Virus genome (UHGV): UHGV-0097030
Source of the DNA: a virus
Direction: 5' to 3' (one strand)
Length of the DNA stretch: 15,489 nt
Both the position numbers and the translations under genes were made by a program. The notes beneath the pieces are model-generated. The model ran no database searches. It was not told the origin of the DNA and saw only the letters and a program-made list of their open reading frames with translations. This document shows positions 11,734 to 15,376 of this stretch, in pieces; position 1 is the stretch's first letter; the number at the start of each line of letters is the position of its first letter.

Positions 11734-12130
11734 ACTAAGAAGCCCCATCCATCAGCAGAACGCCATTCAAGCCATCCAGCAAATCCTTCCAGACCCAACC
11801 AAACCAATCGTAGTAACCATTCAGGAACGCAACCGCAGCATTCGGCAAAATGCACGCCTTCACGCGATGCTATCTGAAATAAGTAAGAAGGCTACATATC
11901 ATGGAAAAGCAAGAAATATTGAGTTTTGGAAGGGGTTATTCGTTTCTGGTTGGCAGATTGCAACCAACCAGCACCCTGAGATTATATCAGGGTTAGAAGG
12001 TGAGCTAATAAACATCAGAGAGAGTACGGCGACTCTATCTGTAAAAAAAATATCCGAAATAATGGACTACATAGAAGCATATTGTGCCATGAACTCAATT
12101 CATCTTAGCGAATGGAGGAATTATGATTGA
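11714..12130 (+). CDS. ninB: NinB (Orf-family recombination mediator), mosaic
   Basis: 138 aa. The first 42 residues (MRKLTFELRSPIHQQNAIQAIQQILPDPTKPIVVTIQERNRS) are near-identical to lambda NinB as recalled. The remainder is divergent but alignable (QNxxL...HG...WK) and AT-rich. Confidence 0.75.
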   Translation: MRKLTFELRSPIHQQNAIQAIQQILPDPTKPIVVTIQERNRSIRQNARLHAMLSEISKKATYHGKARNIEFWKGLFVSGWQIATNQHPEIISGLEGELINIRESTATLSVKKISEIMDYIEAYCAMNSIHLSEWRNYD

Positions 12131-12725
12131 GGTTTGGGTAGATATCGAAGGAATTCCATTTTATCAGGTTAGCAATAAAGGAAATTTCAGGTCTATTACG
12201 AGGGAAATTACAGTAACATCAACCAGACAGAGGCCATATAAGAAAATAATTAATGGCACTAGCGTAAAACCATTCAAGTGCAAGTCGACAGGATATCTTC
12301 AAATAAAGGTATACGGTAAGAAATACAGCGCCCACAGGATAGTTGCGAAAGCATTCTGTACAGGGTTCTGTGATGGCTTGGTAGTTAATCACAAAAATGG
12401 GCAAAGAGATGACAATAGGGCTGAAAACCTTGAATGGGTATCACATTCTGAAAACTCAAAGCACGGATATAAACAAAATGGAAGAATACCTATATCGCTA
12501 GGTAAATTTAGTGGTGATCATCCTGCCAGTAAAGCTGTTATTTCTACTGACATGAAAACTGGGGAGGAGGTTTATTATGAAGCAGCTATGGATGCTGTCA
12601 GAGAAGGATTTGATAGTTCGTCAATTAGTCGTTGCTGTAATGGCGAAAGCTCATATCACAAAGGAAGATTCTGGCGATTTGCAAATGAAACAATGAAAGC
12701 GCGATGGGGAGACAGGGCGGCATGA
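12123..12725 (+). CDS. HNH homing-type endonuclease
   Basis: 200 aa. ATG with GGAGG upstream. N-terminal NUMOD4-like [20 protein letters not shown] motif [30 protein letters not shown]-rich. The last residues KARWGDRAA match the lambda NinB C-terminus. Confidence 0.8.
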
Positions 12726-13932: not shown

Positions 13933-14117
13933 ACGCCACAATTCAAACGATACCAGAGCTTCTTATCCAGACACGAGGCAATCAGACCGAAGTGGCGAGG
14001 ATGCTTTCCTGCGCAAGAGGAACAGTGCTCAAGTACAACCGAGACAGCAAAGGCGAGCGTCACGTAATAGTTAACGGCGTCCTGATGGTCAAACAGGGCA
14101 AGAGGGGTAGACCATGA
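13929..14117 (+). CDS. ninH: NinH
   Basis: 62 aa. GNQTEVARMLSCARGTVLKY...VIVNGVLMV matches lambda NinH (GNQTEVARRLKCSRGTVRKY...AIVNDVLMV). Confidence 0.75.
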   Translation: MNATIQTIPELLIQTRGNQTEVARMLSCARGTVLKYNRDSKGERHVIVNGVLMVKQGKRGRP

Positions 14118-14737
14118 GACTCGAAAGTGTAGCTAAATTTCATTCGCCAAAAAGCCCGATGATGAGCGACTCACCACGGGCCACGGCTTCTGACTCTCTT
14201 TCCGGTACTGATGTGATGGCTGCTATGGGGATGGCGCAATCACAAGCCGGATTCGGAATGGCTGCATTCTGTGGTAAGCACGAACTCAGCCAGAACGACA
14301 AACAAAAGGCTATCAACTATCTGATGCAATTTGCACACAAGGTATCGGGGAAATACCGTGGTGTGGCAAAGCTCGAAGGAAATACTAAGGCAAAGGTACT
14401 GCAAGTGCTCGCAACATTCGCTTATGCGGATTATTGCCGTAGTGCCGCGACGCCGGGCGCAAGATGCAGAGATTGCCACGGTACAGGCCGTGCGGTTGAT
14501 ATTGCCAAAACAGAGTTGTGGGGGAGAGTTGTTGAGAAAGAATGCGGAAGATGCAAAGGTGTCGGCTATTCAAGAATGCCAGCAAGCGCCGCATATCGCG
14601 CTGTAACGATGCTAATCCCAAACCTTACTCAACCCACCTGGTCACGCACTGTTAAGCCGCTGTATGACGCTCTGGTGGTGCAATGCCACAAGGAAGAGTC
14701 AATCGCAGACAATATCTTGAATGCGGTCACACGTTAG
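14114..14737 (+). CDS. Q: Late antiterminator Q (lambda-type)
   Basis: 207 aa beginning MRLESVAKFHSPKSPMMSDSPRATASDS..., matching lambda Q as recalled. Zinc-binding CRDCHGTG...CGRCKG. Immediately upstream of a PR'-like promoter. Confidence 0.9.
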   Translation: MRLESVAKFHSPKSPMMSDSPRATASDSLSGTDVMAAMGMAQSQAGFGMAAFCGKHELSQNDKQKAINYLMQFAHKVSGKYRGVAKLEGNTKAKVLQVLATFAYADYCRSAATPGARCRDCHGTGRAVDIAKTELWGRVVEKECGRCKGVGYSRMPASAAYRAVTMLIPNLTQPTWSRTVKPLYDALVVQCHKEESIADNILNAVTR

Positions 14738-14779
14738 CAGCATGATTGCCACGGATGGCAACATATTAACGGCATAATA

Positions 14780-14808
14780 TTGACTTTTTGAATAAAGTTG
14801 GGTAAATT
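14780..14808 (+). promoter_or_regulatory. PR' late promoter (with qut region)
   Basis: -35 TTGACT (14780-14785), 17-nt spacer, -10 TAAATT (14803-14808). Near-identical to the lambda PR' context TTGACTTATTGAATAAAATTGGGTAAATTTGACTCAACGATGG as recalled. Confidence 0.8.
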
Positions 14809-14844
14809 TGACTCAACGATGGATAAATGCACTCGTTAAATAAA

Positions 14845-14873
14845 GCCCTGAGTTAATAGCTCGGGGCTTTTTG
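14845..14873 (+). terminator. Intrinsic terminator close to PR' (tR'-equivalent)
   Basis: Hairpin GCCCTGAG-ttaatag-CTCGGGGC followed by TTTTTG, about 35-60 nt downstream of the predicted PR' start. Confidence 0.65.
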
Positions 14874-15172
14874 CGTTTTAAGCACGACCTTTCTGAAAGC
14901 GCATCAAACCAAATACCAGACAGACCAAAATAATCACCTTATCCGCTGTGGCTACGGTGCGGTGTGCTTTGCATAAAAGAAAACCAGCGCAATGGCTGGC
15001 TTCGTGAAAGCGGGTGGCAAGAGGTTGCACTAACAACCTCATGCCGTTTTGCCCGTGCATATCGGTCACGAACAAATCTGATTACTAAACACAGTAGCCT
15101 GGATTTGTTCTATCAGTAATCGACCTTATTCCTAATTAAATAGAGCAAATCCCCTCAATGAAGGGGTAGAGC

Positions 15173-15376
15173 ATGTACCGTATGGACAAAATCAGAGAAT
15201 GGTTCAGTTACAGCTTCGGAGGACTGACTGCGATGGGTGGCATTCTCTCCCTGAATGACTGGGCTGTCATCATTGGTATTCTTTGTACTGTCGGCACATT
15301 TGGCATCAACTGGTACTACAAGCGCAAAGAGCGCGAGGACAGATTGAATGGCAATGTCACCGGCACTACGAAATAG
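15173..15376 (+). CDS. Holin (pinholin-like, two TM segments, dual-start motif)
   Basis: 67 aa. Preceded by a lambda-like late leader and SD AAGGGG. Begins MYRM (Met1 and Met4). TM1 is Gly/Ala/Ser-rich ([17 protein letters not shown]); TM2 is hydrophobic; charged C-terminus KRKEREDR. Confidence 0.65.

What the first reader, a model, noticed from the sequence alone, without database searches (positions are those of the whole stretch)
14780..14880. PR' transcript appears to terminate much closer to the promoter than lambda's 194-nt 6S RNA
The PR' -35/-10 and downstream qut-like sequence are nearly identical to lambda, but an intrinsic terminator hairpin with a U-tract lies only about 35-60 nt downstream of the predicted start. 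The lambda-like late leader resumes near 15000. The segment in between appears to have been replaced. Q-dependent read-through would therefore act on a very short nascent RNA, which may change late-gene timing.
Basis: partly seen in the sequence, partly recalled or inferred. Interest (0 to 1): 0.4.

Follow-up and report, generated by a model that had tools for sequence, protein, structure and literature searches.

The report
Ordinary P22-type late terminator tR'
The hairpin terminator about 30-60 bases after the late promoter is real, but it is the standard late-promoter/terminator cassette already annotated in phage P22 and shared by HK022, HK97 and hundreds of E. coli prophages, so it is ordinary.

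Summary
The window encodes a Q protein 100% identical to lambda Q (14114-14737), followed by PR' (14780-14808), a lambda-identical sigma-dependent pause element (AACGAT, 14815-20), and a strong intrinsic terminator (stem 14842-14870, then UUUUUGCGUUUU). That places the stem at +28 to +56 from the inferred start at 14815. Without Q the RNA should be about 60 nt, against lambda's 194-nt 6S RNA. Homology to lambda breaks at +24 and resumes at 15000.

It is not new. The same cassette is annotated in P22 as "t late or t R'; antiterminated by gene 23 protein", and as a terminator in phage Emek. The sequence also occurs in HK022, HK97, HK140 and epsilon34. In IMG/VR loci carrying this PR', 63 have the short form and 55 the lambda form. 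The short leader is in 321 of 5,426 complete E. coli genomes and the lambda 6S body in 416. The window's +1..+68 sequence is the commonest variant.

The idea that the short leader changes late-gene timing has no support. Q loads at the +16/+17 pause and its nozzle is threaded by 15-16 nt of RNA, before the hairpin is made. The leader is only about 240 nt shorter, which is seconds of transcription. Verdict: already known, low interest.

The parts
14114..14737 (+). Q antiterminator gene (207 aa)
   Evidence: 100% amino-acid identity to lambda Q. Pfam PF03589 Antiterm, E = 6e-58.
14780..14808 (+). Late promoter PR' (-35 TTGACT, 17-bp spacer, -10 TAAATT). The spacer carries the Q-binding element.
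   Evidence: Promoter scan. Aligns with lambda PR', with 2 spacer substitutions that P22 and Emek share. The homologous features are annotated as PR'/P late and qut in P22, HK140 and epsilon34.
14815..14831 (+). Inferred transcription start (A14815), sigma-dependent pause element AACGAT (+1..+6), and expected +16/+17 pause position
   Evidence: Positional homology to the annotated P22 5' nt and to lambda +1 = 44587. AACGAT is identical to lambda. The pause itself is inferred, not shown. Base +17 is A here and G in lambda.
14842..14879 (+). Intrinsic terminator tR' (t late): stem 14842-14870 with G-C core 14845-14867, then U-rich tail UUUUUGCGUUUU
   Evidence: Terminator scan. Fold -23.3 kcal/mol, z = -4.58. 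Hairpin energy -18.6 kcal/mol against -23.5 for lambda tR'. The homologous hairpin is annotated as tR' in P22 and as a terminator in Emek. Stem is 98% paired across 20 distinct sequences.
14815..14876 (+). Predicted Q-independent short PR' RNA, about 58-62 nt (counterpart of lambda 6S RNA)
   Evidence: Inferred from the start and the terminator geometry. Short antitermination-regulated RNAs from the late promoters of 21, phi80, 82 and P22 are cited in PMC7547250. The 3' end was not mapped here.
14880..14999 (+). Variable post-terminator spacer, unrelated to lambda and about 71% identical to P22
   Evidence: Alignments. At least five different continuations start right after the U tract in other loci.
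15000..15172 (+). Conserved pre-lysis leader shared with lambda, including hairpin 15016-15045 and the hairpin just upstream of the holin start (15151-15166)
   Evidence: About 4 mismatches to lambda over 15000-15156. Hairpin energies. Scan hit at 15166-15151.
15173..15376 (+). Holin, first late gene (67 aa)
   Evidence: PHROG 20 holin, E = 3.5e-25. Pfam Phage_holin_2_3, E = 4.4e-21.

Best explanation
This is the standard P22/HK022/HK97-type late regulatory cassette of a lambdoid phage: Q gene, PR' with Q-binding element, sigma-dependent pause element, and intrinsic terminator tR' (t late). PR' is expected to fire constitutively. Without Q, RNA polymerase pauses at about +16/+17 and then terminates at the hairpin and U tract at +28..+58, releasing an RNA of about 60 nt. 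This RNA is the short counterpart of lambda's 194-nt 6S RNA. When Q accumulates it binds the element in the promoter spacer and loads onto the paused polymerase. Together with NusA it forms a nozzle on the RNA exit channel, so the tR' hairpin cannot form. Transcription then continues through the 358-nt leader into the holin and the other late genes. Shown here: the sequence elements, their geometry, the stability of the hairpin, its conservation, and its identity with the annotated P22 element. Inferred: the start site, the pause, termination and Q-dependent read-through. These rest on 100% Q identity, near-identity of qut, and published work on lambda and P22.
For: Q is 100% identical to lambda Q. 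PR', the spacer and AACGAT align with lambda. The hairpin plus U tract is found by the scan and folds at z = -4.58. The stretch from the Q stop to +66 is 95.8% identical to P22, against about 70% for the following spacer. The P22 curated record annotates the homologous hairpin as 't late or t R'; antiterminated by gene 23 protein action' and marks the late RNA 5' nt. X78401 and Emek annotate it as a terminator. The cassette is nearly invariant in 69 loci, and the window's +1..+68 is the modal variant (27 of 69). Among IMG/VR loci with this PR', 63 carry the short form and 55 the lambda form. The short leader is in 321 of 5,426 complete E. coli genomes. PMC7547250 states that short antitermination-regulated RNAs are made from the late promoters of 21, phi80, 82 and P22. 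PMC9388147 gives the Q-lambda mechanism and the threading of RNA at 15-16 nt.
Against: No experiment on this exact sequence was available. There are no compensatory changes in the tR' stem (0 pairs changed on both sides), so comparative data show conservation only, not covariation. Bases +9, +11, +15 and +17 differ from lambda, so the pause position and strength could differ. The primary papers sizing the P22 short RNA could not be read.
Confidence: 0.9

Rival explanations
1. Besides being a by-product of antitermination control, the roughly 60-nt PR' RNA is a trans-acting regulatory small RNA in lysogens. It would be analogous to StxS of Shiga-toxin phages, which is also the PR'-tR' transcript. 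This reading is compatible with the best explanation.
For: PR'-tR' transcripts can be functional: StxS binds Hfq and activates RpoS, and its authors propose antiterminated phage promoters as a source of sRNAs (PMC7547250). The predicted RNA has a 5' stem, an A/U-rich single-stranded linker (AAAUAAA) and a terminator hairpin with a U tail. This layout is typical of Hfq-dependent sRNAs (my own knowledge). The whole +1..+66 is more conserved than the flanking spacer.
Against: Conservation of +1..+27 is already explained by qut function, and that of +28..+66 by termination. No Rfam family reaches its threshold (best 21.4 bits against a gathering score of 55). Complementarity to the rest of the window is at chance level (10-mers at most). 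No paper containing the sequence was found. The free linker is very short and of low complexity.
Confidence: 0.1
2. The hairpin is a bidirectional terminator that also stops leftward transcription coming from the late leader or lysis region. It would protect Q and the early region from antisense read-in. This reading is compatible with the best explanation.
For: On the minus strand the G-C core (GCCCCGAG...CTCAGGGC) is followed by TTTATTTA, which is 6 T in 8 (read). A second leftward terminator-like hairpin lies at 15003-14980 and is conserved in P22, which suggests leftward transcription occurs there.
Against: The scan did not call the hairpin on the minus strand. Only one weak leftward promoter-like site was found (15270-15242, 9 of 12 matches), and promoter-like sites occur at the rate seen in shuffles. 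No leftward gene is evident: the 19-codon minus-strand ORF 14937-14878 is broken by a stop in P22.
Confidence: 0.15
3. One reading: the short leader is an unusual replacement that changes how or when Q-dependent read-through turns on late genes, relative to lambda.
For: The leader is 241 nt shorter than lambda's (358 against 599 nt). Four bases in the initially transcribed region differ from lambda.
Against: The arrangement is the common one, not an oddity. Q loads before the hairpin is transcribed. Lambda Q and P22 gp23 are reported to be interchangeable. By my estimate 241 nt is only seconds of transcription. Late timing is set mainly by Q accumulation and holin triggering (established lambda biology, my own knowledge).
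Confidence: 0.05
4. The hairpin is a chance structure and does not terminate. The real Q-controlled terminator lies further downstream, for example the hairpin 15016-15045 followed by GUUUUGCC.
For: The number of terminator-like hits in the region is not above chance (4 against 2.2 +/- 1.4). A second hairpin with a short U run exists downstream.
Against: The fold z-score is -4.58. The stem is nearly invariant in 69 loci while the loop varies. Mosaic junctions fall immediately after the U tract, so the hairpin travels with PR'/qut as one unit. It is annotated as tR' in P22. The downstream hairpin has an A-A mismatch in the window and has no U tract in P22.
Confidence: 0.03

Closest known systems
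Phage P22 late control region: P late (PR'), qut, and t late (tR'), antiterminated by gene 23 protein (GenBank BK000583, X78401)
   Same: The layout is the same: a Q-type gene, PR' hexamers, qut, start 7 nt after the -10, and a hairpin at +28..+57 followed by UUUUUGCGUUUU. The stretch from the Q stop to +66 is 95.8% identical, and the 11-bp stem is identical.
   Different: The loop is TTAATAG here and TTTAACCG in P22. The spacer after the terminator is only about 71% identical. The holin is of a different type here (HP1/P21-like, 67 aa), whereas P22 gene 13 is lambda-S-like.
Coliphages HK022, HK97, HK140, HK544, mEp234, mEp043 and Salmonella phage Emek: late leaders
   Same: 94-98% DNA identity over 14700-15175, including PR', tR', the spacer and the conserved pre-holin leader. 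Emek annotates the same hairpin as a rho-independent terminator.
   Different: Only point differences. For example, HK022 has a U-U at the wobble pair of the stem, and Emek has a C-to-G change at +20.
Lambda PR'-tR' and the 194-nt 6S RNA
   Same: Identical Q protein, the same PR', Q-binding element and pause element, the same logic of a constitutive promoter followed by a Q-suppressed intrinsic terminator, and the same final 170 nt of leader before the lysis genes.
   Different: In lambda the terminator hairpin plus U run spans +138..+193. Here the stem and first U run span +28..+58. The 6S body (+24 to about +190) and lambda's post-tR' spacer are absent.
StxS, the sRNA made from the PR'-tR' transcript of Stx phages (PMC7547250)
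   Same: It is also the short RNA released at tR' from a constitutive, Q-antiterminated late promoter in lysogens.
   Different: StxS goes with the unrelated 144-aa Q type. It is processed by RNase E from a longer precursor to 74 nt, and it has demonstrated Hfq binding and targets. Nothing of that kind is shown for this RNA, and no RNA family matched.

Membership tests
Lambdoid Q-dependent late regulatory cassette (lambda-type Q) | A Q antiterminator gene of the lambda family immediately upstream of the late promoter | tested here: met
   The 207-aa product is 100% identical to lambda Q. Pfam Antiterm, E = 6e-58. The stop codon lies 42 bp before the -35.
Lambdoid Q-dependent late regulatory cassette (lambda-type Q) | A sigma-70 promoter PR' with the Q-binding element in its spacer | tested here: met
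   TTGACT, 17 bp, TAAATT. The spacer differs from lambda at 2 positions, and P22 and Emek share both differences. Actual Q binding could not be tested.
Lambdoid Q-dependent late regulatory cassette (lambda-type Q) | [quoted passage not shown] | tested here: met
   The sequence is identical to lambda at 14815-14820. The pause itself cannot be tested with these tools.
Lambdoid Q-dependent late regulatory cassette (lambda-type Q) | An intrinsic terminator between the pause site and the first late gene | tested here: met
   Hairpin 14842-14870 plus U tract. The holin gene starts at 15173.
Lambdoid Q-dependent late regulatory cassette (lambda-type Q) | Q-dependent read-through of that terminator | not testable with these tools
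   Needs in vitro transcription or reporter assays. Inferred from Q identity and the reported interchangeability of lambda Q and P22 gp23.
P22-type t late / tR' module | Sequence homology of the +1..+66 segment, with the hairpin stem and U tract at the same distance from the start | tested here: met
   95.8% identity from the Q stop to +66. The stem is identical and the loop differs. The feature is annotated in BK000583 and X78401.
Lambda 6S RNA (194 nt) | Presence of the 6S body (+24 to about +190) ending at lambda tR' | tested here: not met
   The alignment shows the 6S body is absent. It is a counterpart by position and origin, not a homologue beyond +23.
StxS-like Hfq-dependent sRNA from PR'-tR' | Hfq binding and trans targets | not testable with these tools
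   No experimental data. No Rfam family reached its threshold. No above-chance complementarity within the window.

The most novel reading that the evidence does not exclude
The roughly 60-nt RNA that PR' releases at tR' in every lysogen of this very common prophage class (5-6% of complete E. coli genomes, and P22-like Salmonella phages) is not just a by-product. It would be an Hfq-associated trans-acting sRNA that modulates host or competing-phage genes, as StxS does for Stx phages. The neighbouring conserved leftward terminator at 15003-14980 could mark a second, unannotated small transcript in the late leader.
Probability: 0.1. Interest if true: 0.5.

Novelty: already known. Interest (0 to 1): 0.08.

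Why it matters
It matters little as a discovery. It is a correct description of a cassette that has been curated in the P22 genome record and that many sequenced lambdoid phages share. Its use is as annotation. The window can be labelled with PR', qut, tR' and the late leader with confidence. The survey also shows that lambda's long 6S RNA is only one of two about equally common versions of the Q-lambda late leader. The one open biological question is whether the abundant short PR' RNA of lysogens has a function of its own. That question is old and applies equally to lambda 6S RNA.

Tried and rejected
- **Rfam scan.** I scanned 14600-15300 at permissive E-values. Only sub-threshold chance hits appeared (SpF01, NsiR1 and leader families that match generic terminator hairpins).
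- **Genome-contig scan.** The PR'/pause-element pattern returned almost only lambda-type hits in non-host taxa (22 of 23), so it was useless for a survey. I used IMG/VR and the E. coli collection instead.
- **Covariation in the tR' stem**. No compensatory changes were found. The stem is simply conserved, so the test is uninformative.
- **Targets of the short RNA within the window**. Only 9-10-mers at chance frequency.
- **Coding potential in and after the short RNA.**
  - The epsilon34 'gp63' and HK140 'gp64' style ORFs are annotated inconsistently between records.
  - By my reading, the frame homologous to gp63 stops after 9 codons in the window.
  - The minus-strand 19-codon ORF 14937-14878 has a stop in P22 and a frame change in HK022.
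  - I rejected all of these as genes.
- **Leftward promoter.** I looked for one feeding the minus-strand terminator at 15003-14980. I found only a 9-of-12 match inside the holin gene, at background frequency.
- **Literature.**
  - A search by exact sequence found nothing.
  - The P22 genome papers and the phage 21 late-region paper are not held.
  - A search for lambda's tandem late terminators found nothing. My recollection of Luk and Szybalski 1983 stays unverified.

Full report
**What is in the sequence**

The window is the early-left, immunity, replication, nin, Q and lysis-start part of a mosaic lambdoid phage or prophage.
- PHROG matches include Erf, Abc2, SSB, a cI-type repressor, cII, O-like and DnaC-like replication proteins, NinB, an HNH endonuclease, RusA and a holin.
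- No phage record covers more than 41% of the window in one place.
- The ORF at 14114-14737 encodes a protein 100% identical to lambda Q.

Downstream of Q the late control elements follow in order.
- Forty-two bases after the Q stop lies TTGACT, 17 bp, TAAATT (14780-14808). It aligns base-for-base with lambda PR' apart from two spacer substitutions.
- The curated P22 record places the late RNA 5' end 7 nt after the -10. In lambda the same position computes to 44587, and the tR' hairpin plus U run ends at +193, which fits the 194-nt 6S RNA. I therefore take A14815 as +1.
- AACGAT at +1..+6, the -10-like sigma-dependent pause element, is identical to lambda.
- Bases +9, +11, +15 and +17 differ from lambda, and CTCGTT (+18..+23) is shared. 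Similarity ends at +24.

**The terminator**

- The scan finds a 13-pair stem with a 3-nt loop at 14842-14870, followed by TTGCGTTTTA.
- Relative to +1, the stem is +28..+56, the G-C core is +31..+53, and the U runs are +54..+58 and +62..+65.
- The 66-nt RNA folds at -23.3 kcal/mol with z = -4.58, and none of 200 shuffles folds as well.
- The hairpin alone is -18.6 kcal/mol, against -23.5 for lambda tR'.
- An RNA released 7-9 nt after the G-C core would be about 58-62 nt long.

The lambda-like leader does resume at 15000 and runs to about 15156 with about four mismatches.

**What it is**

The same 500 bp is 94-98% identical in Emek, HK544, HK140, HK106, mEp234, HK022 and HK97, and about 89% identical to two Salmonella phages and PS34. 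P22 itself matches the 14810-15000 segment at about 80%.
- The curated P22 record (BK000583) annotates P late/PR', the qut site and the late RNA 5' nucleotide. It annotates the homologous hairpin as 't late or t R'; antiterminated by gene 23 protein action to allow full late transcription'.
- X78401 calls the hairpin 'terminator tR'; terminator tQ'.
- Emek annotates it as a rho-independent terminator.
- From the Q stop to +66 the window is 95.8% identical to P22, and the next 120 nt are only about 71% identical.
- Sy et al. (PMC7547250) state that antitermination-regulated short RNAs are made from the late promoters of phages 21, phi80, 82 and P22, citing Roberts et al. 1976 for P22.

The feature is therefore the known P22-type tR'.

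**How common it is**

Of the 118 usable loci, 63 carry the short leader and 55 the lambda 6S leader.
- Among 5,426 complete E. coli genomes, the short leader (14838-14960) is in 321 and the lambda 6S body in 416. Some of the latter are laboratory lysogens.
- The window's +1..+68 is the single most frequent variant, at 27 of 69 loci.

**Comparative evidence for the hairpin**

I compared 20 distinct +1..+68 sequences.
- The stem is 98% paired.
- The loop is the most variable part (TTAATAG, TTAATAT, TTTAACCG, TTTAACAG).
- There is one wobble-to-Watson-Crick change (U-G to U-A), and a few singleton sequences carry a mismatch or a 1-nt deletion.
- No pair changes on both sides, so there is no covariation evidence either way.

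More telling is where the mosaic junctions fall. At least five unrelated continuations begin directly after the U tract. One of them is lambda's own post-tR' sequence (GCACAACAGGTAAGAGC). PR', qut and tR' therefore travel as one module, and the 6S body and the post-terminator spacer are separate exchangeable segments.

**Mechanism and the timing idea**

The mechanism is inferred from identity of the parts and from published work.
- PR' is expected to fire constitutively.
- Without Q, polymerase pauses at about +16/+17 and then terminates at tR'.
- With Q and NusA, the Q nozzle on the RNA exit channel prevents hairpin formation (PMC9388147).

That paper expects the RNA 5' end to be through the Q torus at 15-16 nt. 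The first hairpin base here is +28, and termination needs polymerase at about +60. Loading is therefore complete well before the terminator matters.

Lambda Q and P22 gp23 are reported to substitute for each other. The leader to the first late gene is 358 nt, against 599 nt in lambda, which is a few seconds of elongation by my estimate. I find no support for an effect on late-gene timing.

**Other readings considered**

- *A StxS-like trans-acting sRNA.* This cannot be excluded, because the RNA has a 5' stem, an A/U linker and a terminator with a U tail. Nothing supports it, however: no Rfam family matches, complementarity within the window is at chance level, and no literature hit was found. 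Qut and terminator function already explain the conservation.
- *A bidirectional terminator.* The minus-strand tail after the G-C core is TTTATTTA. No leftward transcription unit is evident.
- *Small ORFs in the region.* These are not conserved.

**Verdict**

The feature is already known and of low interest.

Noticed in passing
window 14980-15003 (minus strand); P22 locus L003 772-797: There is a leftward terminator-like hairpin (GAAGCCAGC CATTGC GCTGGTTTT, then CTTTTATGCA). It is conserved in P22, although the surrounding spacer is only about 71% identical. The stem is kept through a matched one-base insertion on each arm (CCAGC/GCTGG here, CCCAG/CTGGG in P22). Lambda lacks it. No convincing leftward promoter or gene upstream of it was found.
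   Followed up: partly
window 15016-15045, tail to 15053; lambda 45031-45060: A plus-strand hairpin (GGCAAGAGGTT...AACCTCATGCC) followed by GTTTTGCC lies in the conserved pre-lysis leader. It is a perfect 10-bp stem in lambda. P22 keeps it with an A-T pair in place of G-C at stem position 5, but has no U run. The window has an A-A mismatch at that position. It may be one of lambda's secondary late-leader terminators. That is my recollection only, and the literature search found nothing.
   Followed up: partly
IMG/VR loci L036, L121, L134, L129, L048, L080, L039, L070, L098, L114 (just after the tR' U tract): Recombination junctions sit immediately after the short tR'. At least five unrelated continuations occur there. 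Some join the short tR' to lambda's post-tR' sequence, so the late leader is built from at least three exchangeable modules.
   Followed up: partly
L058 8808-9329 (minus strand of the locus); also L136: In some relatives a 173-aa NUMOD4/HNH_3 homing-endonuclease-like ORF is inserted into the late leader, breaking into the hairpin at the position of window 15016-15045. This places a free-standing HNH gene between tR' and the lysis genes.
   Followed up: partly
window 12123-12725 (+): A 200-aa NUMOD4/HNH_3 endonuclease ORF sits inside the nin region between NinB and the downstream nin genes. It is likely a mobile homing-endonuclease insertion.
   Followed up: no
window 14878-14937 (minus strand): A 19-codon hydrophobic ORF (VIILVCLVFGLMRFQKGRA) has a stop codon that overlaps the second U run of tR'. 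The C-terminal FQKGRA/FQKCRA is conserved. However, P22 has an in-frame stop, HK022 has a frame change, and there is no good start or Shine-Dalgarno sequence. It is probably not a gene.
   Followed up: yes
window 14889-14899: An 11-bp palindrome CTTTCTGAAAG lies 10 bp after the terminator. It is nearly intact in P22 (ATTTCTGAAAG, one substitution) although the spacer is otherwise divergent. It could be a protein-binding site or simply a conserved patch. It was not tested.
   Followed up: no
Genome-contig loci L007-L029: The PR' pattern hit assemblies of unrelated organisms (Pseudoxanthomonas, Oceanobacillus, Neobacillus, Shewanella, Bradyrhizobium, Kitasatospora and several MAGs). Most are low-coverage contigs, some of them about 48.4-48.5 kb. 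Of the 23 hits, 22 carry the lambda-type leader. This looks like lambda DNA contamination of those assemblies.
   Followed up: partly
window 14159-14177 (minus strand), inside the 5' end of Q: A minus-strand terminator-like hairpin (GTGGTGAGTCGCTCATCAT, then CGGGCTTTTT) lies within the Q coding region. It may be the end of the antisense paQ/a23-type RNA that is annotated in P22. It was not examined.
   Followed up: no
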